The translations under genes were made by a program, and so were the position numbers. The notes beneath the pieces were generated by a model that had not been told where the DNA came from, made no database searches, and saw only the letters and a program-made list of their open reading frames with translations. A stretch of 32,000 nt of DNA from Citreicoccus inhibens. GTDB lineage: Bacteria; Myxococcota; Myxococcia; Myxococcales; Myxococcaceae. This document shows positions 4,108 to 22,549 of the stretch, piece by piece (positions within the stretch are counted from its first letter, which is position 1; the number at the start of each line of letters is the position of its first letter). The stretch spans positions 242,049-274,048 of the forward strand of contig NZ_JAHNZT010000001.1 in the NCBI RefSeq assembly GCF_019039035.1, in the 5' to 3' direction.

Positions 4108-4210
4108 CCTGGCACGGCGGACACCCGCCCCCGGTTCGTGACGACCCCCTGCCAGGGGTCCACTTCTGGAAACGACCCAAGCCACCGGGTCTCCCCCTCG
4201 CTTGATTCCC

Positions 4211-5506
4211 ATGGATTCCTGGGAGCAGGCTCGGCATCGCGCGGCGGGCCTCCGCCGCCCGACCCGTGGGGGAGTTCGCTTGTCGCCGCCGGTGGAAGCC
4301 GCGCTGCTCGATGCCTTGGATCGCCAGGCACGCCGACGCGCGGAGGGAGTCGCCACGCTGAGCGTCCTCGCGGGCCCGCTCGGGTCCGGCGCGGCGCTGT
4401 GGTCTCGCTGGGCGGAGCGACAAGGTCGGCGCGTCGTCGTCACCGACGCCGAGGATCCGCGCTCGGCCGCGCTCGATTGGGCCCGAGCGCTCTCGGCGGA
4501 GCGAGACCTGGGCGCGGACGCCGAAGCGCTCGCGACCTTCGCGCTCACGGCCGCGCACCCGCGCCACGCCCCCTCCTTCGCGGGCAAGACGCCGCATGAG
4601 CGCCGCGTCCTTCTGGACGCGCTGCCCCCTCCGGCACTGCCCGAGTTCACCTGGGCGCTGTGTCGCCAGCTCATCGAGCAGCGCCCCTCGTTCGACCCCG
4701 GCACGCTGCCGCCTCCCGTGCGAGAGGCACTCCGCCGAGAGCCCCACGCGGCGCTGCAGGCCCTGGAGGCCCTCGTGCCCGCGAGGCATCTGCCCGCGCT
4801 CCGCTGCCGCGCCGGAGCATCCCCCACCCTCTGGGGCCTGCAGTCCGCCGCCGCCCTGTGCCTCGCGGCGCCGATGCTGCCGCTGGCGTGCACGGTGGAG
4901 CCTGACGCGCTCGACGCCTTCCTGCGGGGGCGGGAGTCCCAGGTGCTCGCCGTCGCGCGCGAAGGGCGGCTGGACCTGGGGGCCCCCGTGCCCACCCCCG
5001 TCGCCGCCGCGGCCGACGCGGCCATGGCGCTCCACGGCCGACTCGCGCGCGAGCAAGCCCCCGACGCGAAGCGCGTGCTCCACGCGGAGGCAGCGCGGGC
5101 CGTCCTGTCCGGAGCCCCCGGAACGCCCGAGGAGTTCGCGCGAAGCAAGGCCGAGCAATTCCTCGCCGAGTGCCTTCGTGGCCGCCCCGCCACCGCGGGG
5201 CTGTTCCAGCTCAACCAGCGCCTCCAGCTCGCGGGGGAGGAGCGCGCGTGGGAGGTGGACCTGCTGTGCCGCGAGTGGCGGCTCGCCGTGGAGATTGACG
5301 GCTACTTCCACTTCCTCGACGCGGAGCGCTTCCGTCGGGATCGCCGCAAGGACCTCGCGCTCCAGCGCGCGGGTTACTGGGTGGTCCGCGTGCTCGCCGA
5401 GGACGTGGTGTCTCGCGCCGAGGACATCCTCGACACCTTGGAATCCCTCATCGCCGCCCGCCAGCGTGACGCCGTCGGGCAGGAGGCCGCTCATGGACGC
5501 CGCTGA
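4211..5506 (+). CDS. Hypothetical protein with a C-terminal DUF559 / Vsr-like (PD-(D/E)xK) endonuclease domain and a degenerate P-loop-like N-terminus. Gene A of the candidate system.
   Basis: The C-terminus (SKAEQFLAECL...WEVDLLCREWRLAVEIDGYFHFLDAERFRRDRRKDLALQRAGYWVVRVLAEDV) matches the DUF559 pattern; the E-I-D codons are at 5291-5299. The N-terminus has LSVLAGPLGSGAALW, which is GxxGxG with no Lys. The start is ATG 4211 or TTG 4202, and I see no clear Shine-Dalgarno sequence. Confidence 0.7.
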   Translation: MDSWEQARHRAAGLRRPTRGGVRLSPPVEAALLDALDRQARRRAEGVATLSVLAGPLGSGAALWSRWAERQGRRVVVTDAEDPRSAALDWARALSAERDLGADAEALATFALTAAHPRHAPSFAGKTPHERRVLLDALPPPALPEFTWALCRQLIEQRPSFDPGTLPPPVREALRREPHAALQALEALVPARHLPALRCRAGASPTLWGLQSAAALCLAAPMLPLACTVEPDALDAFLRGRESQVLAVAREGRLDLGAPVPTPVAAAADAAMALHGRLAREQAPDAKRVLHAEAARAVLSGAPGTPEEFARSKAEQFLAECLRGRPATAGLFQLNQRLQLAGEERAWEVDLLCREWRLAVEIDGYFHFLDAERFRRDRRKDLALQRAGYWVVRVLAEDVVSRAEDILDTLESLIAARQRDAVGQEAAHGRR

Positions 5507-6503
5507 CACCCGACTGGAGGGACTCGCCCTCGCCTGGCTCGCCACCCGAAGCAGCCGTCCCGGCACGCGCAAGGAGCTGGCGGACGCGTTGCACCCCTTC
5601 GTCGAGCACCGCTGGAGTCGCGCGGAGTGGGCGCGGCGCTACGAGACCCTCGTGGACACGATGCTCGCGGACGCGCTGGTGCAGCCGCGCTCGCGCCAGG
5701 GACTCACCCTGACGCCCGACGGGCGCAAGCGGGCCCTCCAGTTCCTCGGCGTGGATTCACCCCGGGGCCTCACGTGGAAGAGACTCAAGCAACAGCACCT
5801 GATGGCGCGGAGCCTGGAGCTGCCCGCGTCCAAGGCCGTGCTGACGAAGCTGGCGAACGCGGATGGAATGCGCGCCGCGCTCCTCAAGCGAGAGCACGCC
5901 GTGGAAGGACCGGACGCGCCCACGCTCGCGCAGGTGCGAGACCGGCTGCTGTGGCGCAGCCTGGGCGTGGAGACCGACAGGCCCTTCACCCTGGCCGCGG
6001 TGCAGGCGCACCTCCTGAGTTCGCTCCTGGAGCTGGAGGTCGCTCAACCGCGCCGAGCCTTGGAGCAGCTCGCGGCCCGAGCCGCGGGCGCGGCGCGCGC
6101 GGACGCCGAAGCGCTGCGACTCGCGCTGCTGCGCGGTTGGCTGATGGCGGACGCCACCGAGGCCGCGCCCCGCCCCACCGCGCCGCCGCCCGAGGAACCC
6201 AGGCCCACGGCCCCCGAGCCCACCTCGGCGAGAACCTCGTTCGCGGAGCACCTGCTGGCGGTCGCGCGCGCGCTGCCCACCGGACGCTACGGAGACAACA
6301 AGGTGTTCATCTCCCACGTCTGGCGAGCCCTCCAGCCCGAGTGGCCCAACCGCGAGGCCTTCGATGAGGCCCTGCTGGAAGCCAACCGCGCAAGACAGCT
6401 CTCCCTGAGCCGCGCGGACCTCGTGTCCGCGATGGACCCCACGGACGTGTCCGAGTCCGAAGTGCGCGCGCTCGGCGCCAGCTTTCACTTCGTCGTCATC
6501 TAG
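5493..6503 (+). CDS. Hypothetical protein with no recognisable catalytic motif. Gene B of the candidate system.
   Basis: ATG at 5493 (MDAADTRLEGLALAWLATRSS...) overlaps the end of gene A by 14 nt. 336 aa, helical and Leu/Ala/Arg-rich, with a Pro-rich linker holding two PRPTAP copies. The C-terminal block is GRYGDNKVFISHVWRAL...LSLSRADLVSAMDP...GASFHFVVI. The codons 5' of 5493 in the 635-aa ORF are an alternate frame of gene A. Confidence 0.6.
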   Translation: MDAADTRLEGLALAWLATRSSRPGTRKELADALHPFVEHRWSRAEWARRYETLVDTMLADALVQPRSRQGLTLTPDGRKRALQFLGVDSPRGLTWKRLKQQHLMARSLELPASKAVLTKLANADGMRAALLKREHAVEGPDAPTLAQVRDRLLWRSLGVETDRPFTLAAVQAHLLSSLLELEVAQPRRALEQLAARAAGAARADAEALRLALLRGWLMADATEAAPRPTAPPPEEPRPTAPEPTSARTSFAEHLLAVARALPTGRYGDNKVFISHVWRALQPEWPNREAFDEALLEANRARQLSLSRADLVSAMDPTDVSESEVRALGASFHFVVI

Positions 6504-6523
6504 CCCGAGGTCCGCGAATCCCC

Positions 6524-9500
6524 ATGGCCACCGATGCTCGACTGACTGCCTTCCTCACTGACGGCTGCGAGGTCTTCAGCAGCGTCCAGCAGGGACAAGC
6601 CCTCTGGCAGCCCGACCCCTTCGACGTCGAGTCGATGAACGCGCAGGCCCGCCGCGCCTTCGAGCGACTCGTCCAACGCGCCACGCGCCGCGCCCCGCCC
6701 CCGGACTCCGGCAAGCTCCTGCTCGTCCTGGGCGAGTCCGGCAGCGGGAAGACACACCTGGTCCGGGCGTTCCGGAACGGCGTGCACGGCAAGCAGCAGG
6801 GCTATGTCGGCTACGTGCCCATGACGGTGGACGCGGCCCACTACGACCGGCATGTGCTGTCCAATCTCATCACGTCGCTGGACCACAGCTATGCCAGCGA
6901 CCAAGGGGAGGACTCCGGGCTCACGCGGCTGTCCGACGCGATGATGAAGCGCTGCTCCAGCGCCTTCGCGCCCCTCATCCCCGCGGAGCAGATCCTCGAC
7001 GAGGAGGAGCTGCACGGCGTCATCCACTCCGTCGCGGATGAGCTGCACGCCGACCCGAACTTCAGCGCGGTGGACGTGAGCCTCCTGCGCGCGCTGCTCT
7101 ACTTGCAGCGCCGAGACGCGCGCTTCCATCACCGCGTGCTCCAGTGGCTGCGCTGCGAGGACCTGTCCCCCGCGGACCGCAAGGTGCTGGGGGAGCTGGT
7201 GCCCCGCACGGCGGACGATGACCCGGGCCGCATGATGGAGCACCTGGGCCTGTTGATGGGTGTGCTGGGTCAGGCGCTCGTCATCTGCGTGGACCAGATG
7301 GAGGACATCAGCGACTTCGAGCAGAACCCTCGGATGGAGCCCTCCTGCCGCCGAGCGATGAGCTCGCTGGCCGCGCTGGCCGGGCGCGTGCCCACGGCGG
7401 TGGTGGTCGTCTGCTGCCTCACCGACTTCTGGACCAAGATGCGCGCCCAGCTCAATCAGGCGATGATCGACCGGATCGAGAACGACCCAGAGCCCGTGGA
7501 GCTGGACCGGCTGGTGAGCGCCGCCACGGCGCGGGACATCGCCGCGCGGCGGCTGAGCGCGCTGTATGCGCAGCGCCAGGCGAAGCCAGACGCAGCGGAT
7601 CCGACATACCCCTTCCCCGTGCAAGGCTTCGAGAAGCTCGCCGGCTTCCGCGCCCGCGACGTGCTGAACGAGTGCCGCCGCTACCGGGACCGCGCCATCC
7701 AGGACGGCAAGCTGCCCGAGACCTTCCCGCTGGTCCGCCCTGCGCGCCCCGGAACCGAGCACCCGCTCACGCCCCCCGTGACGCCCTCGCCGCTCGGGCA
7801 GGTGTGGATCGACTTCAAGGCCAACTTCAAGGCGCAGGTCCCGGATCAGAGCGCGGACATCGCCGCGCTGCTCGCGTGGGCCATCGAGTTGGGCGGCCAT
7901 GAGCTGGGCGGCCCGCCACGCTTCGCGGTCCGCGCGCGGGATGGCGAGTCACTCGAGGTCTTCGAGAAGCCCGCGGGCCGCGAGCTGTTCGTCGCGCTGT
8001 GCAACAAGTCCTCACGAGGCGGGCACCTGTCGAAGCAGATGGCCGAAGCGCTGCGCGCCGCCGCGGGCAAGGTCCCCATCCTGGTGCGCACCACGGACTT
8101 CCCCTCGACGCTGGGCAATCAAGTGGCGGAGCAGACCTCGCTCCTGCTGAAGCGAGGGGGCCGGCGCGCGGTCATCGCCGACAGCGACATGCGCGAACTC
8201 GTGGCCCTGCAAGCCTTCCGGCAAGCACACCCCGAGCAAGCCTTCCTGGACTGGACCCGCCAGTCACAACCCATCACCCGGTTGAAGTCCATCAGCGACA
8301 TGCTCGGGCTGGAGAGGCTCGCGGGGCAGTCCGGAGCCCAGGCCGCGGCGCGCGCCCCCGCCCCGACCACCAAGCGCGCGGACGTGCAGGTTTTCGAGCA
8401 GCAACGCGGCACGTTCGGCAAGCCCCCCGGCCTCACCCCCAACACGAGGCGCCCCGACGCCGCGCCTCGCTCGCCACAGGATTTGGATGAGGTCGCGTTC
8501 TCGGGGGACTTCGAAGCCATGGGGCACATGCTGACGTCGCATCCCCCCGAGCCGCGCAAGCCACACTCCGACTCCACACCGGTCATCAATCAACCCATCG
8601 CGAGAATCCCGCTGCCGGACCTCGTCACGGGTCCGCTCCAGTTGGGCGTCACCGAGGGCCTCCTCTCCGAGCCCCTCACGATGGACGTGGAAGACCTGAC
8701 GCGGCACTGCGCCTTCCTGGGCGGAACGGGCAGCGGCAAGACGACGCTGGCGCTCAGCGTGGTGGAGCAGCTCCTGCTGCAAGGCATCCCCGCGCTGCTG
8801 CTGGACCGCAAGGGCGACCTCGCCTCCTACGCGAAGGATGAAGCGTGGCGGGAGAAGCTGGACGTCCCCTTCCTCGAGGAGCGGCGCCGGCTGCTGCGTG
8901 AGCGCGTGGACGTGGCGCTCTACACCCCGGGCCGCTCGGATGGACGTCCACTGGCCATGCCCCTGGTGCCACGCGGCCTGGAGCAACTCCCTCCCGAGGA
9001 ACAGGAGCAGGGACTGCAACAAGCGGCGGACGCGCTCGCGAGCATGCTGGAGTACAAGAACAATCCCCGAGACCGAGCCTCCCGCGCGCTCCTGTCGCAA
9101 GCCATCCGCCTGCTGACCCATCGCGCGCCGCAGCGAGAACTGTCGCTGGGGATGATTCATGAGCTCGTGGAGTCGATGGACCCCACGCTCGTCCAGGAGG
9201 CCAAGGGCCTGGACCCCAAGTTGTTCCCCAAGCTCAGCCAGGACATCGCCACGCTGCGCATGAACAAGCGCACGCTGCTGTCCAGCACGGGCGAGAAGCT
9301 GGACCTGGAGGAACTGCTGGGCCGAGGCCCGGGTGCCAACTCGGGGCGCACGCGGCTGAGCATCGTCAGCACCAAGTTCCTGGGCGACACCCCCAACGTC
9401 CTCTTCTGGGTCTCCCAGTTGCTCCAGGAAGCGAACCGCTGGGCGAGCCAGCATCCCTCGCCGCGCCTCCAGGCCACGATCCTCTTCGACGAGGCGGACC

Positions 9501-9886
9501 TGTACCTGCCGGCCGTGGGCGTACCCGCGACGAAGCCGCCCATGGAGAACCTGCTCCGGCGGGCGCGCTCGGCGGGCGTGGGCGTGCTCCTGGCGACGCA
9601 GAGCCCTGGCGACTTCGACTACAAGTGCCGCGAGAACGTGCGCACCTGGTTCGTCGGCTGCGTGCGAGAGGAGCGCGCCATCGGGAAGCTGCGGCCCATG
9701 TTCTCCGAGGCCAAGGTGGATGCATCCCAGACCCTCCCGCCGCAGCGGCAGGGGCAGTTCCACCTGCTGCGCGACGGGCAGGTGCGCAAGCTCAAGGCGG
9801 ACCGCAGCGTCATGCGCACCGAGCAGCTCCCCGAGGATGAAATCCTCCGGCTTGCTCGGCGGACCCAGGAGCGACAGGGCAAGTAG
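6524..9886 (+). CDS. Large dual P-loop NTPase: an N-terminal AAA/ORC-like ATPase module plus a C-terminal HerA/FtsK-like (DUF87-type) ATPase module. Gene C of the candidate system.
   Basis: Module 1 has Walker A LLLVLGESGSGKTHLV (6731-6754) and Walker B-like ALVICVDQMEDI. Module 2 has LTRHCAFLGGTGSGKTTLA (8720-8743), Walker B ATILFDEADLYLP (Asp-Glu at 9488-9493) and the HerA-type VGVLLATQSPGDFD motif. A Pro/charge-rich linker spans about 8340-8620. The gene starts 20 nt after gene B. Confidence 0.85.
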   Translation: MATDARLTAFLTDGCEVFSSVQQGQALWQPDPFDVESMNAQARRAFERLVQRATRRAPPPDSGKLLLVLGESGSGKTHLVRAFRNGVHGKQQGYVGYVPMTVDAAHYDRHVLSNLITSLDHSYASDQGEDSGLTRLSDAMMKRCSSAFAPLIPAEQILDEEELHGVIHSVADELHADPNFSAVDVSLLRALLYLQRRDARFHHRVLQWLRCEDLSPADRKVLGELVPRTADDDPGRMMEHLGLLMGVLGQALVICVDQMEDISDFEQNPRMEPSCRRAMSSLAALAGRVPTAVVVVCCLTDFWTKMRAQLNQAMIDRIENDPEPVELDRLVSAATARDIAARRLSALYAQRQAKPDAADPTYPFPVQGFEKLAGFRARDVLNECRRYRDRAIQDGKLPETFPLVRPARPGTEHPLTPPVTPSPLGQVWIDFKANFKAQVPDQSADIAALLAWAIELGGHELGGPPRFAVRARDGESLEVFEKPAGRELFVALCNKSSRGGHLSKQMAEALRAAAGKVPILVRTTDFPSTLGNQVAEQTSLLLKRGGRRAVIADSDMRELVALQAFRQAHPEQAFLDWTRQSQPITRLKSISDMLGLERLAGQSGAQAAARAPAPTTKRADVQVFEQQRGTFGKPPGLTPNTRRPDAAPRSPQDLDEVAFSGDFEAMGHMLTSHPPEPRKPHSDSTPVINQPIARIPLPDLVTGPLQLGVTEGLLSEPLTMDVEDLTRHCAFLGGTGSGKTTLALSVVEQLLLQGIPALLLDRKGDLASYAKDEAWREKLDVPFLEERRRLLRERVDVALYTPGRSDGRPLAMPLVPRGLEQLPPEEQEQGLQQAADALASMLEYKNNPRDRASRALLSQAIRLLTHRAPQRELSLGMIHELVESMDPTLVQEAKGLDPKLFPKLSQDIATLRMNKRTLLSSTGEKLDLEELLGRGPGANSGRTRLSIVSTKFLGDTPNVLFWVSQLLQEANRWASQHPSPRLQATILFDEADLYLPAVGVPATKPPMENLLRRARSAGVGVLLATQSPGDFDYKCRENVRTWFVGCVREERAIGKLRPMFSEAKVDASQTLPPQRQGQFHLLRDGQVRKLKADRSVMRTEQLPEDEILRLARRTQERQGK

Positions 9887-9924: not shown

Positions 9925-11379
9925 ATGGATGCCCTGCCTCACCCCGTGCCCACGCTGGACCGCGAGCGCTTCGAGGCGCTCGTGCGTCAGGGCTACTCGC
10001 AGGTTCCCCTCGTTCGCCGGCTCGAGTCCGTCGTCGCGCGCCCCGTGGACCTCTTGCGCGCCCTGCCCACCGAGGGGCGATTCCTCCTGGAGAGCACCCG
10101 CGTCAGCGAAGAGGGACGCTATTCGTTCCTCGGCGCAAGACCGTTCCTTCGCTTCACCGCGAAGGGCGCGCGGTGCCACATCGACGGCGCCGAGCAATCG
10201 GGCTCACCGCTCGACGTCCTCGGGGCGCTGCTGCGGCGATGGAGCGCCCCACGCCTGCTGGGCATGCCGCTCTTCTGTGGCGGCGCGGTGGGCGTCTTCG
10301 CCTACGAGGCGAACCACTACTTCGAGCGCCTGCCTCGACACCCGGGCGATGACCTGGGGATCCCCGACATCGCCCTGCACTTCGTGGACACGTTCCTCGT
10401 GGTGGACCATGTCGAGGGCGCGGTGCTGGCCGTGGCCACGGGCAACGACCACGACGACTGCGCGCGACGGCTGGATGAACTGGAGCGAAGCGCCCGACAG
10501 GCCGTGCCCACGGCCGCGCCACCCGCACCGCCCGCGGATACGCCGCCCGTGGCGTGGCGCTCCAACTTCACGCAGCCGGACTACCTGCGCGCGGTGGAGC
10601 GTGTGCGTGAGTACATCCTCGCGGGGGACACGTATCAGGTGAACCTCTCGCAGCGACTGGAGGTGGACTTCACGGGCGAGCCGCTCGCGCTCTACGACTG
10701 CCTCTGCGCCACCAGCCCCGTCCACTTCGCCAGCTACTTCGAGTTCGATGGCTTCCAAGTGGTGAGCGCGTCCCCCGAGCGGCTGGTGCGAGTGGAAGGC
10801 GGCTGGGCCACCACCCGCCCCATCGCCGGCACACGGCGCCGAGGCACGCCTGAAGAAGAAGCGCGCTTCGTCCACGAACTGCGCACCAGCGAGAAGGAAC
10901 AGGCCGAGCACGCCATGCTCGTGGACCTGGAGCGCAATGACCTGGGCCGCGTGTGCGCGCATGGCACGGTGGCGGTGACGCGGCTGATGGAGATCATCGA
11001 GTACGCCCACGTCCTGCACATCGAATCCGAGGTGAAGGGCCAGCTCGCCCCAGGCGTGGAGCCGCTCGACGTGGTGGGCGCGCTGTTCCCGGGCGGCACC
11101 ATCACGGGCGTCCCGAAGATTCGCACCATGCAGATCATCACCGAGCTGGAGCCCGCGCCCCGCGGCCTCTACACGGGCTCGCTGGGCTACTTCAGCTTCG
11201 CTGGGGGCCTGGACCTGAACATCGTCATCCGCACCCTGTGGGTGAAGGACGGGCGCGCCTACACGCAGGTGGGCGGCGGCATCGTCCACGACTCGGAGCC
11301 CCGCCAGGAATACAAGGAGACGCTCAACAAGGCGCGCTCACAGCTCCTCGCCCTGGCGGCGTGTGGAGGGGCGCGGTGA
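9925..11379 (+). CDS. pabB: Aminodeoxychorismate synthase component I (chorismate-binding enzyme, TrpE/PabB family)
   Basis: Chorismate-utilising motifs [51 protein letters not shown] and [11 protein letters not shown]. It is assigned to PabB rather than TrpE because pabA- and pabC-type genes are tightly linked downstream. Confidence 0.8.
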
Positions 11380-11960
11380 TTCTCCTCGTCGACAACTTCG
11401 ACTCGTTCACCTTCAACCTCGTGCAGGCCTTCGGTGCGCTGGGCGCGGAGCTGCTCGTGAGGCGCAACGACGCGCTCACGGTCGCGGACGTGGAGGCGCT
11501 GCGCCCGAGTCACCTCGTCATCTCACCCGGGCCATGCACACCGAATGAAGCGGGGGTGTCGCTCGCGCTCATCCGAGCGTTCGCCGGACGCATCCCGTTG
11601 CTCGGTGTCTGCCTGGGTCATCAGTGCCTGGGACAGGTGTTCGGCGCGAAGGTGGTGCGTGCTCCCGTGCCCGTGCATGGAAAGACGGCCGCGGTCGAGC
11701 ACGCGGGCCAGGGCGTCTTCGAGGGGCTCCCCGTCCCCTTCCGCGCCGCCCGTTATCACTCGCTGGTCGTCGAGCGAGCCTCGCTGCCCGAGGGCCTGGA
11801 GGTCACCGCGTGGCACGGCGACCTCATCATGGGTCTGCGACACCGCGAGCTGCCGCGCGTGGAGGGCGTGCAGTTCCATCCCGAGTCCTTCCTCACGCCC
11901 GAGGGCCCTCGGCTCCTGGCCAACTTCCTGGAGCCGGGGCGCGGACGCCGCCCCGCGTGA
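11376..11960 (+). CDS. pabA: Aminodeoxychorismate/anthranilate synthase component II (class I glutamine amidotransferase)
   Basis: [16 protein letters not shown], the catalytic Cys in [11 protein letters not shown], and the His/Glu pair in GVQFHPES. The GTG start overlaps the pabB stop (GTGA at 11376-11379). Confidence 0.9.
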
Positions 11961-14182: not shown

Positions 14183-16987
14183 ATGGACGAGGAAAGCCAG
14201 GCCCTCCCCAACGAGCGGGAGCGAATGCTCCACCGCCAGGCCGTCCTCTTGGAGCAATCCATCCTGCTCGAGCTGGCCGCCGCGCGGACCTCGGACTTCG
14301 AGGCCAGCCTGCGCCAGATTCTCCAGAGCGACGCGGAGCTGCTGGGCGTCGACCGGGTGAGCTACTGGACCTTCGAGCAGGACTCCCGCGCGCTCCTCTG
14401 CCGTCTCCTGTACGTGCGCGGCCAGGGCGCGTCCGAGCCCGGCATCCGACTGCTGGCGAGCGAATACCCCCACTACTTCGAGGCGCTCGCGCAGGCCCCC
14501 TTCATCGCGTCCTCGGACGCGCAGGTGGATCCGCGCACGCGGGAGTTCAGCGCCAGCTACCTGCGGCCCCTCGGCATCAGGGCCATGATGGATGTCCCAG
14601 TCTGGGTCCAGGGCCGGCTGGGAGGCGTCGTCTGTCACGAGCACCAGGGCACCCAGCGCATCTGGACCTTGGAGGAGCAGTCCCTCGCGCGTTCCATCGG
14701 GCACCTGGTGTCCATGGCCCTGGAGTCCACCGAGCGGCACCGGGCCGAGGACTCCTTGAGGCAGAGCGAGGAGCACTTCCGCCTGCTCGTCGACGGCGTG
14801 AAGGACTACGCGCTCGTGATGTTGGATCCGGACGGGCAGGTGGTGAGCTGGAACGCGGGAGCCGAGCGCATCACCGGCTATGGCGCGCAAGAAGCGCTGA
14901 CGAAGCACTACACGGACTTCCAGACGAAGGAGAGCGTGGAGCGCGGTTGGCCCCAGCTCCAGCTCCTGGGCGCGTCCGAGGCGGGCCGGGTGGAAGTCGA
15001 AGGCTGGCGCGTTCGCAAGGACGGCTCGCGCTTCTGGGCGAACGTCGTGCTCACCTCGCTGCGCGCGCCCGACGGACGGCTGCGCGGCTTCGCCGAGGTG
15101 AGCCGCGACCTGACCGAGCAGAAATGGGCCGAGCATCAGCGCGGCCTGCTCGTGGAGGCGAGCGCCTCCGAGCAACGCCAGCGCCTGTTGTCGGAGGTGA
15201 GCTCGGCGCTCGTGTCCTCGTTGGATGTCTCCGCGGCGCTCGCGGCGCTCGCGCATCGCGTGGTGCCGCTCCTGGCGGACGCGTGCATCCTCCACCTGGA
15301 ACATGAGGGCGGGCTGAAGCTCGCCGCGTGTGAGCAGGGCTTCGGCGCGATGGAGGTCGACGTGTGCCGCCTCTTGAGCGGCCCCACCCCAGCGCTCGAA
15401 CCACCTCCCGCGTTGCTCCAGGTGCTGCGCACCGGCAAGGCGCGTCGCATCCGTCACCTGGGGCGGCTCATGCATCGGCTTGGACCGCGCATCGCCAGGC
15501 CCGGGTCCACGCTCGCGTCCCTGGAGCCGTTCTCGGTGATGATGGCGCCCCTGCTCGCCCGCGGACGCGTGCTGGGGACGCTCACCTTGCTGAGGAACGC
15601 GCCCGCGTATCCGTACTCGCGCGCGGAGCTGCTGCTGGCCGAGGAACTGGCGCGTCGATCCGCCTACGCCGTGGACAACGGGCGGCTCTACGAGGAGCTG
15701 CGCCGCGCCGAGCAGTCACAGCGACTGCTCGACGAGGCGAGCAAGACCTTGGCGGAGTCACTCGACTACGAGACGACGCTGTCGCGCGTCGCGCACCTGG
15801 GCATCCCGCAGATGGCGGACTGGTGCGTGGTGGACGTGCTGGAGGAGTCCGGCACACCGCGGCGCATCGCGCTCGCGCACGCGGACCCCTCCAAGCTGGC
15901 GATGCTCCAGGAACTCCAGGACCGGTATCCCGCGCGGCGGGACTCCCATCCGCCCGCGGCCCGCGTGCTCCGCACGGGCGTCTCGGAGATCTTCCCCACC
16001 ATCACCGACGAGCGGCTGAAGGCCGTCGCGTCGGATGCGCACCACGAGCACCTCCTCCGGGAGCTGGGGACCCGCACCGCCATCGCCGTGCCGCTGCGTG
16101 CGCGGGGCCGGATCCTCGGCGCCATCACGTTCGCCTCGGGCGCAGGGCGCGTCTACGGCCCCGCCGACCTCCAGCTCGCGGAGCAGCTCGCCCATCGCAC
16201 CTCGATGGCCATCGACAATGCACGCCTGTATCAGCGCGCCCGCGTCGCCATCGACTCGCGGGATGAGTTCCTCTCCATCGCCTCGCATGAGCTGCGCACG
16301 CCCGTCACCACGCTGCATCTCCAGCTCCAGACGATTCAACGCATGGGTCGGGCAAGACAGGACCTGGAGCTGACGCGCCGGGTGGATGTGGCGGTGAAGC
16401 AGATGCACCGGCTCGACAAGCTGATTGATGGATTGCTCGACGTGTCGCGCATCACCGCCGGCAAGCTCCACTTCGACCTGGAGCCGTTGGACCTCTCCGA
16501 GCTCGCGGCCGAGGTGGTGGAGCAGTTCCAAGTCGAGGCCCACCGCGCGGGCTGCGAGCTGCGCCTCCACGCCGACGAGCCGGTGACGGGCCTGTATGAC
16601 CGCCTGCGGCTGGAGCAGGTCCTGGCCAACCTGCTGTCCAACGCCTTCAAGTACGCGCGAGGCAAGCCCGTGCAGGTGACGGTGCGGTCCGCGCCCGGCG
16701 ACCTCGCCCTGCTCACCGTCGAGGACCAGGGCATCGGCATCTCGGAGGCGGACGCGACGCGCATCTTCAGTCGCTTCGAGCGAGCCGTCTCGCCTCGTCA
16801 CTATGGCGGCTTGGGCCTGGGCCTCTTCATCACCCAAAGCATCGTGCAGGCCCACGGCGGCACCATCCACGTCACGAGCCGCCCCGGAGAAGGCTCGCGC
16901 TTCACCGTCTGCCTGCCACGTCGACCCGAGACCGCGCGCGCGTTGGACGGCGCCGTGTCCTCGGCTCAGGAAGCCTCTCCCCCGTGA
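14183..16987 (+). CDS. Cytoplasmic multi-sensor histidine kinase (GAF-PAS-GAF-GAF-HisKA-HATPase_c)
   Basis: PAS region EEHFRLLVDGVKDYALVMLDPDGQVVSWNAGAERITGY...RKDGSRFWANV. H-box FLSIASHELRTP (His codon at 16286-16288), N-box LANLLSNAFKYA, G-boxes VEDQGIGI and GGLGLGLFI. No TM segments and no receiver domain. The likely start is ATG 14183, preceded by GGAGGTG. Confidence 0.9.
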   Translation: MDEESQALPNERERMLHRQAVLLEQSILLELAAARTSDFEASLRQILQSDAELLGVDRVSYWTFEQDSRALLCRLLYVRGQGASEPGIRLLASEYPHYFEALAQAPFIASSDAQVDPRTREFSASYLRPLGIRAMMDVPVWVQGRLGGVVCHEHQGTQRIWTLEEQSLARSIGHLVSMALESTERHRAEDSLRQSEEHFRLLVDGVKDYALVMLDPDGQVVSWNAGAERITGYGAQEALTKHYTDFQTKESVERGWPQLQLLGASEAGRVEVEGWRVRKDGSRFWANVVLTSLRAPDGRLRGFAEVSRDLTEQKWAEHQRGLLVEASASEQRQRLLSEVSSALVSSLDVSAALAALAHRVVPLLADACILHLEHEGGLKLAACEQGFGAMEVDVCRLLSGPTPALEPPPALLQVLRTGKARRIRHLGRLMHRLGPRIARPGSTLASLEPFSVMMAPLLARGRVLGTLTLLRNAPAYPYSRAELLLAEELARRSAYAVDNGRLYEELRRAEQSQRLLDEASKTLAESLDYETTLSRVAHLGIPQMADWCVVDVLEESGTPRRIALAHADPSKLAMLQELQDRYPARRDSHPPAARVLRTGVSEIFPTITDERLKAVASDAHHEHLLRELGTRTAIAVPLRARGRILGAITFASGAGRVYGPADLQLAEQLAHRTSMAIDNARLYQRARVAIDSRDEFLSIASHELRTPVTTLHLQLQTIQRMGRARQDLELTRRVDVAVKQMHRLDKLIDGLLDVSRITAGKLHFDLEPLDLSELAAEVVEQFQVEAHRAGCELRLHADEPVTGLYDRLRLEQVLANLLSNAFKYARGKPVQVTVRSAPGDLALLTVEDQGIGISEADATRIFSRFERAVSPRHYGGLGLGLFITQSIVQAHGGTIHVTSRPGEGSRFTVCLPRRPETARALDGAVSSAQEASPP

Positions 16988-18921
16988 GGGTCCGCGAGCC
17001 CCAGCGCCCACAGCGGGAAGATGCGCAGATAGGCGTCGTAGTGGATGGCACAGGTGCGGTTGAACACGCCCGCGAGCGGCTCGCTCGGCCACCGGCCATC
17101 AGCGCCCTGCCAGCCTCGCAGCCACGCCACGCCTCGCCGCGCGGACTCGGATGCGCCATCCCCCGTGGCCACCAGGGACAGCAGCGCCCACGACGTCGTC
17201 ACCGCGTGGCCCGTGGCGCCCTCCACCCACCTCCGCTCCCGGCAGCTCTGGATGGTCTCGCTCCAGGCGCCGTCTGCCCGCTGACGCGCGCACAGGAAGG
17301 CCGAGGCGCGCCGCAGCGCGGGGTCATCCTGGGGAGCTCCCGCGGCCACCAGCCCCGTGACTCCGAACCACGTGCCGTAGCTGAAGCACACGCCCCACGC
17401 GCCTTCCCAGCTCCCATCGGCGCGCTGGGTGCGCCGCAGGAAGTCCACGCCCCGCGCGATGGCACGGTCCACCGCGGCGCTGGGCGCGACCTGGCGCCAC
17501 GCCACCAGCGCCTGCACGCAGGCCGAGGTGCACTCGACATAGCTGGTGTCCACCATGATCCCGGCGAACACGTCCGAGGGATTGAGGCGCTCCAGCCACC
17601 GCGGCCCGCGCTGCGGCTCGTACGTGGCCCAGCCGCCGTCCCGGTTCTGCAGCGAGAGGATGAACTCCACCGCGTGCCCCAACCGCTCACGTGACACGCG
17701 GTTGAGCCCCAGGGGCTCCAGCAGGAGGCACGCCTTCACGCCCTCCGCCGTGCAGTCGCTGATGGGCCAGCCATGCGCGCGCGTGCTGAAGGGCCAGCCG
17801 CCTCGGCTGGGGTGGCGATGGAAGCGCGCCGCGCGAGGCGAGTCCTCCAACACCTGCTGCGCCTCCAGGAAGTCGGCCGCGCGCGCCAGCGTCTCGCGCG
17901 CGGCCTCCGCCTGCCCAGACGCCACCAGCGCTTGCACGGCGAAGGCGGTGTCCCAGAGCTGCGAGGAGTTGTAGCCGTTGACCTTCACCCCGTCGTCGGA
18001 GCGCTGGAGGTAATCCGGCAGTCGCGCCAGATGCGCTTGGACCTCTGGGCCCTCGGGCCGCGCCAGGTGCCACACCGCCGCATGGAGCACCTTGTTGATG
18101 GGCCCGATGCAGATGAAGTGCGTGGCCTCGTCTTCGCCGCGCATCTGCGCGAGCGACTCCTCCAACGCCCGCGCGCGCAGCCGCTTCGAGTGCACGCGCT
18201 CATAGACGCCCAGCACGCGATTCACCGCGCGCAGCCAGAAGGTGCGCGGCGTGTACGCGTCCGAAGGCGCCACCCGCTCCCGCGCCGCTTTCCAATCCAC
18301 GGCCTCGTAGGGCTCGGGGTACAGCTCGCGCCGCAGCTCGGCGAGCAGCGGCGTCTCGGGTGCCCGCGCCCGACGCCCGTACAGCCATCCCATGGGCAGG
18401 TACACCATGCGGCAGTGGCACCACAGCCGCGAGGGATGGAACGGGAGCGCGCGCGGCAGGAGCCACAGCTCGGGCGGAACGGGTGCCAGGCCCTCGTACT
18501 CATAGAGCCCCAGCAACGCGAGGACGAACTTCCCCCACGAGCCACTGCCCAGCGGCCCGCCCTGGGCGTGCAGCCACGCGCGGGCTCGCACCAGCGCGGG
18601 GTCCTCCGCGGGCACGCCCGACAGCCGCGCCGCCACGTAGTTCAGCGCCGTGGTGAAGACGAGGCTGGGCGATTCCACATCGAGGCCCCAGCCACCGTCC
18701 GCGTTCTGATGGAGCCGCGCATGCGTGAGCATCCCCTCACGAATGTCCGGCTCCGGCGCACGGCCCATCAAATACAGCGCCGCCACGTACACCGGCCCCA
18801 GGAACAGCGGGCCGCCGTAGTCGCCCTTCCAGGAGCCATCCCCCTCCTGGGTCCGAGCGAGCACGTCGCGCGCCCGCCGCGTCACCGCACCGCCTCCTCC
18901 CCTCGGGGCGTCCGTGAGCAA
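16966..18921 (-). CDS. Oxidosqualene cyclase (terpene cyclase/mutase family), predicted cycloartenol synthase type
   Basis: Multiple QW repeats (QNADGGWG, LQNRDGGWA, RTQRADGSWEGAWG, ARQRADGAWSE, GWQGADGRWPSE). The catalytic motif is WPISDCTAEG (DCTAE at 17743-17757), typical of oxidosqualene cyclases rather than the DxDDTA of squalene-hopene cyclases. An alternative GTG start at 18883-18885 overlaps the squalene synthase stop as GTGA. Confidence 0.9.
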   Translation of the reverse strand: MLTDAPRGGGGAVTRRARDVLARTQEGDGSWKGDYGGPLFLGPVYVAALYLMGRAPEPDIREGMLTHARLHQNADGGWGLDVESPSLVFTTALNYVAARLSGVPAEDPALVRARAWLHAQGGPLGSGSWGKFVLALLGLYEYEGLAPVPPELWLLPRALPFHPSRLWCHCRMVYLPMGWLYGRRARAPETPLLAELRRELYPEPYEAVDWKAARERVAPSDAYTPRTFWLRAVNRVLGVYERVHSKRLRARALEESLAQMRGEDEATHFICIGPINKVLHAAVWHLARPEGPEVQAHLARLPDYLQRSDDGVKVNGYNSSQLWDTAFAVQALVASGQAEAARETLARAADFLEAQQVLEDSPRAARFHRHPSRGGWPFSTRAHGWPISDCTAEGVKACLLLEPLGLNRVSRERLGHAVEFILSLQNRDGGWATYEPQRGPRWLERLNPSDVFAGIMVDTSYVECTSACVQALVAWRQVAPSAAVDRAIARGVDFLRRTQRADGSWEGAWGVCFSYGTWFGVTGLVAAGAPQDDPALRRASAFLCARQRADGAWSETIQSCRERRWVEGATGHAVTTSWALLSLVATGDGASESARRGVAWLRGWQGADGRWPSEPLAGVFNRTCAIHYDAYLRIFPLWALGLADPHGGEAS

Positions 18922-19925: not shown

Positions 19926-19996
19926 GGCTTCCTCCACGCCGTGCGGCGCTCCGCGTCAGTGACTAAGTGTTGTGTGGACAAAAAGGTGGGGGCTTC
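19926..19996. promoter_or_regulatory. Divergent promoter region between the squalene synthase-cyclase operon and squalene epoxidase
   Basis: A 71-bp intergenic spacer separates the divergent starts (19925 minus, 19997 plus). It is locally less GC-rich (gtgactaagtgttgtgtggacaaaaaggtggggg). I could not assign any specific -35/-10 elements. Confidence 0.4.
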
Positions 19997-22548: not shown

Positions 22549-22549
22549 C

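What the first reader, a model, noticed from the sequence alone, without database searches (positions are those of the whole stretch)
4202..9886. Three-gene operon (DUF559/Vsr-like nuclease protein, orphan protein, dual P-loop HerA-like ATPase): candidate uncharacterised defence or DNA-processing system
Three co-directional ORFs with minimal spacing look like one transcription unit. Gene A is 4211-5506. Gene B is 5493-6503 and overlaps A by 14 nt. Gene C is 6524-9886 and starts 20 nt after B.

- A ends in a DUF559/Vsr-like PD-(D/E)xK endonuclease module (WRLAVEIDGYFHF...RRDRRKDLALQRAGYWVVRV).
- C carries two independent P-loop modules. The C-terminal one is of the HerA/FtsK clade (LTRHCAFLGGTGSGKT, ILFDEADLY, LLATQSPGDFD).
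- B has no motif I recognise.

Pairing a nuclease with a HerA-like ATPase is the logic of NurA-HerA end resection and of the HerA-Sir2 and HerA-DUF4297 anti-phage systems. I know of no described system that combines a DUF559 effector, this middle gene, and a HerA module fused behind a second ATPase.

The triad sits between lipid-metabolism genes and the pab operon. There is no integrase, transposase or tRNA nearby, so if it was acquired the boundaries are not obvious.
Basis: partly seen in the sequence, partly recalled or inferred. Interest (0 to 1): 0.85.

Follow-up and report, generated by a model that had tools for sequence, protein, structure and literature searches.

The report
Conserved nuclease, DNA-binder, double-ATPase operon
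Three tightly packed genes (a DNA-cutting enzyme, a DNA-binding adaptor and a large protein with two ATP-driven motors) form a real, uncharacterised module shared by several soil-bacterial phyla; it probably acts on DNA, but a role in phage defence is plausible rather than shown.

Summary
Coordinates, the 14-nt overlap, the 20-nt gap and all quoted motifs are correct. The true start of A is probably TTG 4280.

The three genes travel together in the order A-B-C. I found them in Myxococcota, Planctomycetota and Verrucomicrobiota, and in a remote form in Actinomycetota.
- B followed by C is obligate: 52 of 52 loci with enough DNA.
- A is a frequent accessory, present in about 40 of 47 loci.

What each gene encodes:
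- A: a degenerate P-loop/AAA+-like domain plus an intact DUF559/Vsr-fold nuclease.
- B: a winged-helix protein with no known family. Its C-terminal 90-aa domain recurs in phage proteins, including a phage-type polyvalent protein.
- C: a STAND/BrxD-like ATPase (Walker B is DQxE) joined by a disordered linker to a HerA/DUF87 ATPase.

No PADLOC, Pfam, NCBIfam or PDB entry covers A's N-domain or B. The only defence-model hit is Mad8-like, for the HerA module alone. The triad is not MADS, BREX, HerA-NurA or SIR2-HerA.

Against a classical defence island:
- The locus is fixed between the same housekeeping genes across Myxococcaceae.
- Eight gene-called contexts show no defence genes or mobile elements.

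Best reading: an ATP-driven DNA translocase-nuclease module, probably conflict-related. Housekeeping repair is the main rival. It is a new variant of a known kind.

The parts
4211..5506 (+). Gene A (431 aa from ATG 4211; probably 408 aa from TTG 4280): pseudo-ATPase domain plus DUF559 nuclease
   Evidence: ORF. 221 homologues, mostly annotated as DUF559 or endonuclease. AlphaFold model has pLDDT 90.7. GGGGGAG lies before TTG 4280.
4283..5110 (+). A N-terminal alpha/beta domain with a large helical insert (aa ~25-300). It is P-loop/AAA+-like, but its Walker A is degenerate (LSVLAGPLGSGAA, nt 4358-4396)
   Evidence: No homologue has the GK[ST] lysine or a Walker B acid. Weak Foldseek hits to ORC2, HslU, Rubisco activase and MuB, E 0.03-0.5. 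It aligns strand for strand with C's ATPase core, but not significantly: hhalign E 0.07.
5198..5470 (+). A C-terminal DUF559/Vsr-fold endonuclease domain. Invariant residues: E348, D350, E361, D363, H367, R375-D381, Q385, R393
   Evidence: Pfam DUF559 E 1.8e-7, above cut-off. Foldseek to 3hrl has TMt 0.79 and prob 1.0; also I-Bth0305I and PvuRts1I. Profile alignment to 3hrl. Invariant columns.
5493..6503 (+). Gene B (336 aa): orphan winged-helix adaptor, the obligate partner of C
   Evidence: No Pfam, PADLOC, NCBIfam, PHROG or PDB family. 2453 clusters at 50% identity in the representative library. Always directly upstream of C.
5493..5747 (+). B N-terminal winged helix-turn-helix (aa 1-85), followed by a helical domain (aa 86-220)
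   Evidence: Model pLDDT above 90 here. Foldseek prob 0.99-1.0 to MepR, SSV1 F-93, DtxR and PadR winged helices, E about 0.05. Viral wHTH proteins also hit.
6225..6500 (+). B C-terminal ~90-aa domain (GDNKVFISHVW, LSRADLVSAMD, FHFVVI). A mobile module also found, sometimes in tandem, in phage proteins
   Evidence: Best-conserved part of B across phyla. An HMM of it scores 56-84 bits on ORFs of 5 IMG/VR contigs and on none of 160 shuffled sequences. One carrier is a polyvalent protein with ParB_N, Sigma70_r2 and LPD38.
6524..9886 (+). Gene C (1120 aa): double ATPase
   Evidence: ORF. 496 homologues, full length in several phyla. 100% identical to a Citreicoccus inhibens / Corallococcus sp. M34 protein. 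The M. xanthus orthologue is MXAN_1591.
6524..8323 (+). C N-module (aa 1-600): STAND/ORC/BrxD-like P-loop ATPase with Walker A GESGSGKT (nt 6731-6754) and Walker B ICVDQMED (nt 7283-7306), plus a conserved alpha/beta region (aa ~430-600) of unknown fold
   Evidence: AAA_16 and AAA_22 in 14 of 14 members, nSTAND1 in 13 of 14, BrxC_BrxD in 4 of 14. Invariant G70, G73, G75, K76, T77 and D257, Q258, E260. No PDB relative by profile.
8324..8620 (+). C linker (aa ~600-700): Pro/Ala-rich, variable in length, presumably disordered
   Evidence: tblastn alignments break here and C length varies from 1043 to 1294 aa. This linker explains the spurious 'TonB-dependent receptor' annotations of homologues.
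8621..9883 (+). C HerA/FtsK-type ATPase module (aa 700-1120): Walker A GGTGSGKT (nt 8720-8743), LLDRKGDL (8798-8821), Walker B ILFDEADLY (9479-9505), LLATQSPGDFD (9587-9619)
   Evidence: DUF87 E 3.9e-12 and HerA_C 9.4e-9. PADLOC mad8 E 9.7e-20 over 274 of 314 profile positions. YjgR and HerA PDB chains hit. Motifs conserved across phyla except in L024.

Best explanation
A, B and C form one self-contained, horizontally spread DNA-handling module.

**Core: B plus C.** C combines two engines.
- An N-terminal STAND/ORC/BrxD-like P-loop domain has an invariant Walker B of DQxE. This suggests a slow-hydrolysing switch or loader rather than a motor (inferred).
- A flexible linker tethers it to a catalytically intact HerA/FtsK-type ATPase. 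In all studied relatives that type forms rings that pump DNA (established for the family, inferred here).

**B** supplies DNA recognition through its N-terminal winged helix. Its C-terminal domain probably docks it to C or to DNA (inferred).

**A** is an accessory effector present in most versions. Its Vsr/DUF559 nuclease domain keeps all catalytic residues. Its N-terminal domain looks like a dead copy of a P-loop ATPase, which would let it plug into C's ATPase assembly so that cutting is coupled to ATP-dependent loading or translocation (inferred).

**Role.** The most likely biological role is surveillance and destruction or processing of foreign or aberrant DNA. This would be a conflict system in the broad sense of HerA-nuclease and BREX-like ATPase systems, retained vertically in Myxococcaceae.

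**Shown:** the operon, its co-inheritance, the domain identities and the motif conservation.

**Not shown:** any activity, any complex, any phage phenotype.
For: **Co-inheritance**
- Same gene order in 20+ genome loci from three phyla, and no fourth conserved gene.
- In metagenomes, B is followed by C in 52 of 52 cases and preceded by A in about 40 of 47.
- Identities of A, B and C to the window co-vary across 35 loci: Spearman 0.88 (A-B), 0.62 (B-C) and 0.75 (A-C).
- A remote version with the same architecture exists in Nonomuraea.

**Domains**
- DUF559 fold and invariant catalytic residues.
- Degenerate P-loop domain in A.
- Winged helix in B.
- AAA_16/nSTAND1/BrxC_BrxD-like N-module with DQxE.
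- HerA module with intact Walker A, Walker B and TQ motifs.

**Conflict-type signals**
- Patchy distribution over Myxococcota, Planctomycetota, Verrucomicrobiota, Alphaproteobacteria and Actinomycetota, in unrelated neighbourhoods.
- A second paralogous triad in Stigmatella, and several C paralogues in Archangium and Cystobacter.
- In Myxococcaceae the triad diverges faster than its flanks: A 48-56%, B 59-65% and C 56-64% identity against 75-86% for the flanking genes.
- Decayed copies:
  - C split next to IS110 in Singulisphaera sp. GP187.
  - C cut by IS3 on plasmid pXAUT01.
  - HerA Walker motifs lost in L024.
- A type II R-M pair (m5C methylase plus Eco29kI-like) is inserted directly upstream of A in two Myxococcus species.
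- B's C-terminal domain occurs in phage proteins, including a phage-type polyvalent protein. That class is proposed to be injected early in infection (PMC5512222).
- The closest defence model is Mad8 of MADS.
Against: **No functional data.** Nothing is published for the M. xanthus orthologue MXAN_1591 or its neighbours.

**Genomic context**
- In Myxococcaceae the triad is at one fixed locus between housekeeping genes in every genus sampled. It is present in all M. xanthus strains seen, so it behaves like a core gene set.
- Eight gene-called contexts contain no recognised defence gene, integrase or prophage.
- It is essentially absent from 72,556 plasmids and 50,697 phage genomes.

**The nuclease is dispensable.** It is missing in 7-10 loci, and Pfam detected no replacement effector there. 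That is odd for an effector-based immune system.

**Weak statistical support for some structural claims**
- The AAA+-like reading of A's N-domain: Foldseek E 0.03-0.5.
- Its relation to C's ATPase: hhalign E 0.07.

**No self/non-self discriminator.** There is no methylase in the conserved module.
Confidence: 0.45

Rival explanations
1. Housekeeping DNA repair or maintenance machine. This would be an analogue of HerA-NurA end resection, or of a mismatch/lesion nicking pathway, used by large-genome soil bacteria. B targets the complex to damaged or structured DNA, C unwinds or translocates, and A nicks.
For: - Fixed syntenic position and near-universal presence in Myxococcaceae.
- Housekeeping neighbourhoods everywhere and no mobile-element hallmarks.
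- Absent from plasmids and phages.
- The Vsr fold is a repair nuclease fold.
- HerA partners with a nuclease in end resection (established knowledge of HerA-NurA).
Against: - Very patchy across bacteria, with different genomic positions in each lineage.
- Paralogous copies within one genome.
- Faster divergence than flanking genes.
- Decayed copies.
- The nuclease is optional.
- No NurA, Mre11/Rad50 or other repair gene is linked.
- B's C-terminal domain is shared with phage polyvalent proteins.
Confidence: 0.3
2. The B-C pair is a DNA translocation or partition device, or a STAND-type signalling switch, whose primary output is not DNA cleavage. FtsK/TraB-like pumping directed by a sequence-specific winged helix is one example. 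A would be a lineage-specific add-on.
For: - B-C occurs without A in at least 7-10 loci with no substitute effector found.
- FtsK and TraB motors use winged-helix DNA readers (established knowledge).
- A long flexible linker lies between the two ATPase modules.
Against: - A accompanies B-C in about 85% of loci and co-evolves with them: rho 0.88 with B.
- No membrane anchor, conjugation genes or partition genes are nearby.
- A DUF559 protein also accompanies the remote Nonomuraea version.
Confidence: 0.12
3. It is a diverged member of an already named system (MADS, BREX, SIR2-HerA / DUF4297-HerA, Dnd/Dpt or Dpd).
For: - PADLOC mad8 E 9.7e-20, and weak HerA, DpdH and mad3 P-loop hits.
- Pfam BrxC_BrxD hits in 4 of 14 N-modules.
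Against: - Only the generic ATPase cores match.
- No hit to Mad6 or Mad7, which are mandatory for MADS (10.1101/2023.03.30.534895).
- No methylase, PglZ, SIR2, DUF4297, NurA or Dnd genes in the conserved module.
- A and B hit nothing in PADLOC.
Confidence: 0.04
4. Chance ORFs or three unrelated neighbouring genes in a high-GC genome.
For: High-GC DNA produces many long spurious ORFs on all frames.
Against: - Codon-position GC signature.
- Hundreds of homologues.
- Conserved order and spacing in over 50 loci from several phyla.
Confidence: 0.01

Closest known systems
HerA-NurA end-resection complex, and the HerA-based anti-phage systems SIR2-HerA and DUF4297-HerA
   Same: - A HerA/DUF87-type ATPase is encoded next to a nuclease or other effector.
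- The HerA module has intact Walker A, Walker B and TQ motifs.
- The working logic of a ring ATPase that activates or feeds an effector is the most likely analogy.
   Different: - The effector is a Vsr/DUF559 nuclease with a dead P-loop domain. It is not NurA, SIR2 or DUF4297.
- The HerA module is C-terminal to a second STAND/BrxD-like ATPase and a roughly 100-aa disordered linker.
- An obligate winged-helix partner (B) has no counterpart.
- PADLOC HerA models match only partially: E 5e-10 to 0.03, short stretches.
MADS (methylation-associated defence system), protein Mad8
   Same: C's HerA module is the best PADLOC match to Mad8: E 9.7e-20 over 274 of 314 profile positions.
   Different: - MADS is an 8-gene operon with methylase, specificity and kinase-like genes.
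- Mad6, Mad7 and Mad8 are mandatory for detection (10.1101/2023.03.30.534895).
- None of those other components is present or matched.
BREX ATPases BrxC/PglY and BrxD (Pfam BrxC_BrxD, formerly DUF2791), and STAND NTPases (AAA_16, nSTAND1, NACHT)
   Same: C's N-module is a P-loop NTPase of this broad class. From general knowledge, BrxD-type ATPases are paired with a motor (the BrxHI helicase) in some BREX types. That resembles the fusion to HerA seen here.
   Different: - Matches are weak and near or below the gathering cut-offs.
- The Walker B is DQxE.
- There are no sensor repeats, PglZ or PglX.
- A profile search finds no solved relative.
DUF559 / Vsr-fold endonucleases (NGO0050 3hrl, I-Bth0305I, PvuRts1I, E. 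coli Vsr)
   Same: A's C-terminal 90 aa have the fold and the conserved acidic/His/Arg residues.
   Different: - It is fused behind a 300-aa degenerate P-loop domain found only in this family.
- It is encoded in an ATPase operon rather than next to a Dcm methylase or inside an intron.
Kleisin-type bridging subunits (MukF, JetA of Wadjet)
   Same: B has an N-terminal winged helix, a helical body, a disordered linker and a small C-terminal domain. MukF and JetA appear among full-length Foldseek alignments.
   Different: - Scores are at noise level: E 0.05-0.13, TM about 0.2.
- No SMC partner is present.
- This is a resemblance in layout only.
Phage polyvalent proteins (Iyer et al. 2017, PMC5512222)
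   Same: B's C-terminal domain occurs inside one such protein (ParB_N, Sigma70_r2, LPD38). It also occurs in tandem in other viral-contig proteins.
   Different: - B itself is a small cellular protein.
- The shared domain is not one of the Pfam LPD families.

Membership tests
HerA/FtsK superfamily ATPase (C, aa 700-1120) | DUF87/HerA central P-loop domain with Walker A, the DxxGE-type strand after it, Walker B DE and the TQ motif | tested here: met
   Pfam DUF87 47.2 bits (cut-off 23.2) and HerA_C 34.9 bits (cut-off 22). GGTGSGKT, LLDRKGDL, FDEAD and ATQSPGD are conserved across phyla.
HerA/FtsK superfamily ATPase (C, aa 700-1120) | N-terminal HAS-barrel of canonical HerA, and hexameric ring assembly | not testable with these tools
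Only about 30 ordered residues precede Walker A after the linker, so a HAS-barrel is unlikely.
HerA-NurA | Adjacent NurA (RNase H-fold) nuclease | tested here: not met
   A is DUF559/Vsr-fold. No NurA hit appears in any conserved neighbour.
SIR2-HerA / DUF4297-HerA defence systems | SIR2 or DUF4297 effector encoded with HerA | tested here: not met
   No such domain in A, B or C. PADLOC HerA models match only partial stretches.
MADS | Mad6, Mad7 and Mad8 together, with methylase, specificity and kinase genes as accessories | tested here: not met
   Only the mad8 model matches, plus a 20-aa P-loop hit to mad3. System definition taken from 10.1101/2023.03.30.534895.
BREX | PglZ phosphatase and PglX methyltransferase together with a BrxC/PglY ATPase | tested here: not met
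   Neighbours are an acyltransferase, an epimerase and PabB/PabA-like genes. BrxC_BrxD hits only 4 of 14 N-modules, at E 6e-4 at best.
STAND NTPases (Avs-like) | NTPase core of the AAA_16/NACHT/nSTAND type | tested here: inconclusive
   AAA_16 31.2-35.6 bits against a cut-off of 32.6. nSTAND1 26.5-28.2 bits against 27.1. All 14 relatives hit AAA_16.
STAND NTPases (Avs-like) | C-terminal sensor repeats (TPR, WD40, LRR) and a fused effector | tested here: not met
   No repeat domains in C. The C-terminal half is a HerA ATPase.
DUF559 / Vsr-like endonuclease (A, aa 330-420) | Pfam DUF559 match above cut-off, and a Vsr-like fold | tested here: met
   31.4 bits against 20.6. Foldseek to 3hrl: prob 1.0, TMt 0.79, rmsd 3.2.
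DUF559 / Vsr-like endonuclease (A, aa 330-420) | Conserved catalytic acidic and His residues, implying activity | tested here: met
   E348, D350, E361, D363 and H367 are invariant in 50 sequences and aligned to 3hrl. Enzymatic activity itself is not testable here.
AAA+/P-loop NTPase (A, aa 25-300) | Walker A GxxxxGK[ST] and a Walker B acidic residue | tested here: not met
   GP(L/P)xxxA replaces the P-loop and no lysine occurs in any of 50 homologues. Fold resemblance only.
Kleisin (MukF/JetA) | Significant structural match and an SMC partner | tested here: not met
   Foldseek E 0.05-0.13 and TM about 0.2. No SMC gene is linked.
Defence-island resident (operational criterion for new defence systems) | Enrichment next to known defence genes or on mobile elements | tested here: inconclusive
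   0 of 8 gene-called contexts contain defence genes. An R-M pair is adjacent in 2 Myxococcus species. No genome-wide statistic could be computed.

The most novel reading that the evidence does not exclude
B-C is a previously unrecognised class of self-loading DNA-surveillance machine.
- A BrxD/ORC-like switch ATPase, natively slowed by its DQxE Walker B, is tethered to a HerA pump.
- A two-winged-helix, kleisin-like adaptor (B) guides it.
- A nuclease carrying a dead copy of the switch ATPase co-assembles with it.
- Phages counter it by injecting polyvalent proteins, and by expressing tandem arrays, that carry decoy copies of B's C-terminal docking domain.
Probability: 0.12. Interest if true: 0.85.

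Novelty: new variant of a known kind. Interest (0 to 1): 0.6.

Why it matters
If the triad is an immune or DNA-surveillance system, it adds a widespread family. B alone spans about 2,450 clusters at 50% identity. The architecture has not been described before: two different ATPase engines in one chain, an orphan DNA-binding partner, and a nuclease with a pseudo-ATPase handle. It occurs in phyla (Myxococcota, Planctomycetota, Verrucomicrobiota) where defence biology is barely explored.

The phage-borne copies of B's C-terminal domain would give a ready hypothesis for a counter-defence.

If it is instead a repair machine, it would be a bacterial functional analogue of HerA-NurA built from different parts.

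Either way, MXAN_1589-1591 in the genetically tractable M. xanthus makes it directly testable.

Tried and rejected
**MADS membership.** Rejected. Only Mad8 matches.

**Menshen.** I read the paper because it cites MADS. It contains no HerA, DUF559 or Vsr content and is irrelevant.

**PDB sequence and profile searches.** Searches for A's N-domain, for B and for C's N-module returned only P-loop noise and designed helical proteins.

**Fold searches**
- Against PDB and BFVD, B gave only generic winged helices.

**Literature searches (all empty)**
- DUF559 + HerA + defense, DUF853 + defense system, Myxococcus + anti-phage + HerA, YjgR, and MXAN_1589-1593 found nothing on this module.
- One search (HerA/Vsr/STAND/conflict) returned only clinical noise.

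**Other database searches**
- Plasmid and phage collections: no close copies.
- PHROGs: nothing.

**Search for more components**
- A fourth conserved gene: none found.
- Alternative effectors where A is missing: the neighbours were WD40, EamA, YcaO/TfuA, trypsin-like and TonB-receptor genes, all unrelated.

**A's N-domain as a duplicate of C's ATPase.** The alignment is topologically sensible but statistically insignificant: hhalign prob 0.8%, E 0.07.

**Promoter and terminator scan.** Uninformative in this GC-rich genome.

Full report
**1. The observation**

The window is about 71% GC. It matches *Citreicoccus inhibens* / *Corallococcus* sp. M34: C is 100% identical to P0001.

- A opens at TTG 4202, has an ATG at 4211, and ends with TGA at 5504-5506.
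- B runs from ATG 5493 to 6503. It overlaps A by 14 nt and has GGAGG 6 nt upstream.
- C runs from ATG 6524 to 9886, starting 20 nt after B.

All quoted peptide motifs are present, and the residue numbers K76, K739 and E364/D366 (ORF-track numbering) are right.

The called frames carry the coding signature of a high-GC genome: GC3 is 0.88-0.91 and GC2 is 0.46-0.55. Each product has hundreds of homologues.

One correction concerns the start of A, which is probably TTG 4280 (408 aa).
- A GGGGGAG box lies upstream.
- The 99%-identical database entry P0241 has that length.
- Homologues align only from about residue 25.

A chorismate-binding (PabB/TrpE-like) gene begins 38 nt after C, so transcription may continue into it.

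**2. Is it a unit?**

Yes. A scan of one genome per species returned 28 loci encoding full-length C relatives. They come from:
- Myxococcaceae;
- Planctomycetota (Pirellulales, Isosphaeraceae, *Aquisphaera*, *Frigoriglobus*);
- Verrucomicrobiota (Chthoniobacterales);
- one Azospirillaceae MAG.

tblastn of A and B shows them directly upstream of C, in the same order, wherever the contig reaches that far. All-against-all clustering of flanking ORFs found no fourth gene conserved outside Myxococcaceae.

A metagenome scan seeded with the B profile added 49 loci.

Over all loci:
- Every B with downstream sequence is followed by C. The count is 52 of 52. The 13 apparent exceptions arise only because that script kept just C's second HSP.
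- A precedes B in about 40 of 47 loci.
- Identities of A, B and C to the window proteins co-vary across 35 loci: Spearman 0.88 (A-B), 0.62 (B-C) and 0.75 (A-C).

B-C without A occurs in L018, L024, L027/L028, L045, L053, L063, L074, L088 and on plasmid pXAUT01. Pfam found no substitute effector in those places.

A remote version exists in *Nonomuraea gerenzanensis* (Actinomycetota). It has a 366-aa DUF559 protein, a 235-aa protein with a winged-helix-like segment, and a 1175-aa AAA_16 + DUF87 protein.

The conclusion is that B-C is an obligate pair and A a frequent accessory.

**3. Anatomy**

*A.* The AlphaFold model has pLDDT 90.7.
- The C-terminal 90 residues are a DUF559/Vsr-fold nuclease.
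  - Pfam scores it above cut-off.
  - Foldseek to 3hrl gives TMt 0.79 and prob 1.0; I-Bth0305I and PvuRts1I also hit.
  - The profile aligns to 3hrl.
  - E348, D350, E361, D363, H367 and the RRDRRKD stretch are invariant in 50 sequences.
- Residues ~25-300 form an alpha/beta domain with a roughly 100-residue helical insert.
  - The position of a P-loop reads GP(L/P)xxxA, with no lysine in any homologue and no Walker B acid.
  - Foldseek lists ORC2, HslU, Rubisco activase, MuB and PAB2304, but only at E 0.03-0.5.
  - hhalign against C's N-module aligns the pseudo-P-loop to C's Walker A, and the next core strands to C's Walker B and sensor strands. Its probability is 0.8%, which is insignificant.
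  - I therefore call it a degenerate P-loop/AAA+-like domain. That is an inference, not a result.

*B.* The model has pLDDT 81.
- It consists of an N-terminal winged helix (aa 1-85), a confident helical body (to aa 220), a disordered linker (222-243) and a small C-terminal domain (245-336).
- Foldseek probabilities of 0.99-1.0 to MepR, SSV1 F-93 and DtxR winged helices support the first domain, although E is only about 0.05.
- MukF and JetA appear as full-length but noise-level alignments.
- B hits no family in Pfam, PADLOC, NCBIfam, PHROGs or the PDB.
- The family is nevertheless large: 2453 representatives of 50%-identity clusters at E <= 1e-3, and 548 at E <= 1e-30.

*C.*
- The N-module (aa 1-600) matches AAA_16 and AAA_22 in 14 of 14 relatives, nSTAND1 in 13 of 14 and BrxC_BrxD in 4 of 14.
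- It has an invariant GxxGxGKTH and an invariant Walker B of D257-Q258-x-E260.
- A profile search finds no solved relative.
- Residues ~430-600 are conserved but unassigned.
- Residues ~600-700 are Pro/Ala-rich and variable in length.
- The C-terminal module is a HerA/DUF87 ATPase, closest to PADLOC's Mad8 at E 9.7e-20.
- Its Walker A, DRKGDL, FDEAD and ATQSPGD motifs are conserved across phyla. In the A-less L024 variant both Walker motifs are lost.

**4. Genomic behaviour**

Within Myxococcaceae the triad sits at one locus: acyltransferase, epimerase, a 0.1-4.3 kb gap, A-B-C, then pabB.
- The flanks are 75-86% identical to the window.
- A is 48-56%, B 59-65% and C 56-64% identical.

The triad is therefore vertically inherited there, but it diverges faster than its neighbours.

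It is present in all *M. xanthus* strains represented. The DK1622 orthologue of C is MXAN_1591. No paper in the library mentions MXAN_1589-1593.

The gap upstream of A is variable. In *M. llanfair...ogochensis* and *M. eversor* it holds an m5C methylase plus an Eco29kI-like endonuclease.

*Stigmatella aurantiaca* has a second, paralogous triad at another locus. *Archangium* and *Cystobacter* have several C paralogues.

Seven gene-called contexts outside the window were examined. They come from *Singulisphaera* (two), *Stigmatella* and four metagenomic contigs. Their neighbours are sugar-metabolism, ribosomal/GTPase, glucan-synthesis and respiratory genes. No defence genes or prophages are present.

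The window itself carries pabA/B-like, histidine-kinase, squalene/hopanoid, MMPL and HMG-CoA reductase genes and no tRNA.

Decayed copies exist:
- C is split next to an IS110 in *Singulisphaera* sp. GP187.
- C is cut by IS3 on *Xanthobacter* pXAUT01.

Plasmid and phage collections hold no close copy.

**5. A lead from phages**

Scanning IMG/VR with the B profile found five viral contigs that encode only B's C-terminal domain, at 41-54% identity.

An HMM of that domain scores 56-84 bits on these ORFs and on none of 160 shuffled controls.

The carriers are:
- two proteins with a receiver domain plus two tandem copies of the domain;
- two roughly 370-aa proteins next to tail-like genes;
- a 2044-aa protein with ParB_N, Sigma70_r2 and LPD38.

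[quoted passage not shown] Those proteins are proposed to be injected with the DNA at the start of infection (PMC5512222).

A metagenomic protein, P0431, carries a kinase-like N-terminus plus three to four copies of the domain.

This shows the domain is a mobile module used by phages. Whether it binds DNA or C is unknown.

**6. Interpretation**

The parts point to an ATP-driven DNA machine.
- A winged-helix reader (B).
- A switch- or loader-type ATPase fused to a ring translocase (C).
- In most versions, a Vsr-fold nuclease that may dock through its pseudo-ATPase domain (A).

I put the conflict-type reading at about 0.45, housekeeping repair at about 0.30, and a non-nucleolytic translocase or switch role at about 0.12. 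Membership of a named system and chance ORFs take the small remainder.

**7. Comparison and novelty**

The module works most like HerA-plus-effector systems and BREX-type ATPase systems, but it fails the membership tests for all of them.
- HerA-NurA: no NurA.
- SIR2-HerA and DUF4297-HerA: no such effector.
- MADS: only Mad8 matches.
- BREX: no PglZ or PglX.
- Avs-type STANDs: no sensor repeats.

I found no description of the module in PADLOC-DB 2.0 or in the searchable literature. I rate it a new variant of a known kind (NTPase-nuclease DNA modules).

Interest is moderate to high, for four reasons:
- the family is large;
- the architecture has not been described before;
- there is a concrete phage link;
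- a tractable model organism carries it.

Noticed in passing
window 6225-6500 (B aa 245-336); L035 6468-8285, L036 5541-11675, L037 7149-8645, L038 1560-2651, L039 7155-8297: B's C-terminal ~90-aa domain is a mobile module in IMG/VR viral contigs. It occurs single or in tandem, once inside a polyvalent protein with ParB_N, Sigma70_r2 and LPD38. No Pfam or PHROG family covers it. It is absent from 50,697 cultured-phage records.
   Followed up: partly
L004 4949-7512 and L013 5222-7513: A C-5 cytosine methylase plus an Eco29kI-like restriction endonuclease are inserted between the epimerase gene and gene A in two Myxococcus species. The gap upstream of the triad is variable, from 0.1 to 4.3 kb.
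   Followed up: partly
L034 4705-9839 (Nonomuraea gerenzanensis): A remote actinobacterial version of the same architecture: a DUF559 protein (366 aa), a 235-aa protein with a winged-helix-like segment, and an AAA_16 + DUF87 protein (1175 aa; 26% identity to C over aa 486-1087).
   Followed up: partly
L033 6823-9278 (Xanthobacter autotrophicus pXAUT01, Xaut_4854/4853): A remote B homologue (hhalign 98%, E 2.5e-13) lies next to a 455-aa N-module-only ATPase that ends at an IS3 transposase. It looks like a truncated B-C pair on a conjugative plasmid.
   Followed up: partly
L031 12412-17091 (Singulisphaera sp. GP187): C is called as two genes (797 + 317 aa), with an IS110 transposase just downstream. 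S. acidiphila has an intact 1074-aa C at the same rhaA-adjacent locus.
   Followed up: no
L024 9225-10385: In the Azospirillaceae B-C pair, which has no A, the HerA module has lost Walker A (GDPASGAEA) and Walker B (LDAAE). This points to an inactive translocase.
   Followed up: no
L072 2089-, L074 3986-7936, L075 936-: A metagenomic subgroup of A-less B-C pairs has C with an extra N-terminal extension of about 210-280 aa and no Pfam match. It might replace A.
   Followed up: no
window 4280: The likely true start of A is TTG 4280, preceded by GGGGGAG, rather than ATG 4211. The database protein P0241 has the corresponding 408 aa.
   Followed up: yes
window 9925-11960: PabB/TrpE-like and glutamine-amidotransferase genes start 38 nt after C. 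PabB follows C in most Myxococcaceae loci with downstream sequence (it is absent after C in L003 and L005), so co-transcription with the triad is possible.
   Followed up: partly
P0077, P0082, P0117, P0362, P0363 (public annotations of C homologues): Several C homologues are annotated 'TonB-dependent receptor' or 'EcfA2'. These look like mis-annotations caused by the Pro-rich linker and the P-loop.
   Followed up: no
P0385 (474 aa), P0431 (693 aa): B-family variants. P0385 has its N-terminal winged-helix region duplicated. P0431 has a kinase-like N-terminus followed by three to four tandem B C-terminal domains.
   Followed up: no
window 16966-26142: A cluster of isoprenoid and hopanoid-type genes on the minus strand: squalene-hopene cyclase, squalene/phytoene synthase, an MMPL transporter and HMG-CoA reductase. 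It is unrelated to the finding.
   Followed up: no
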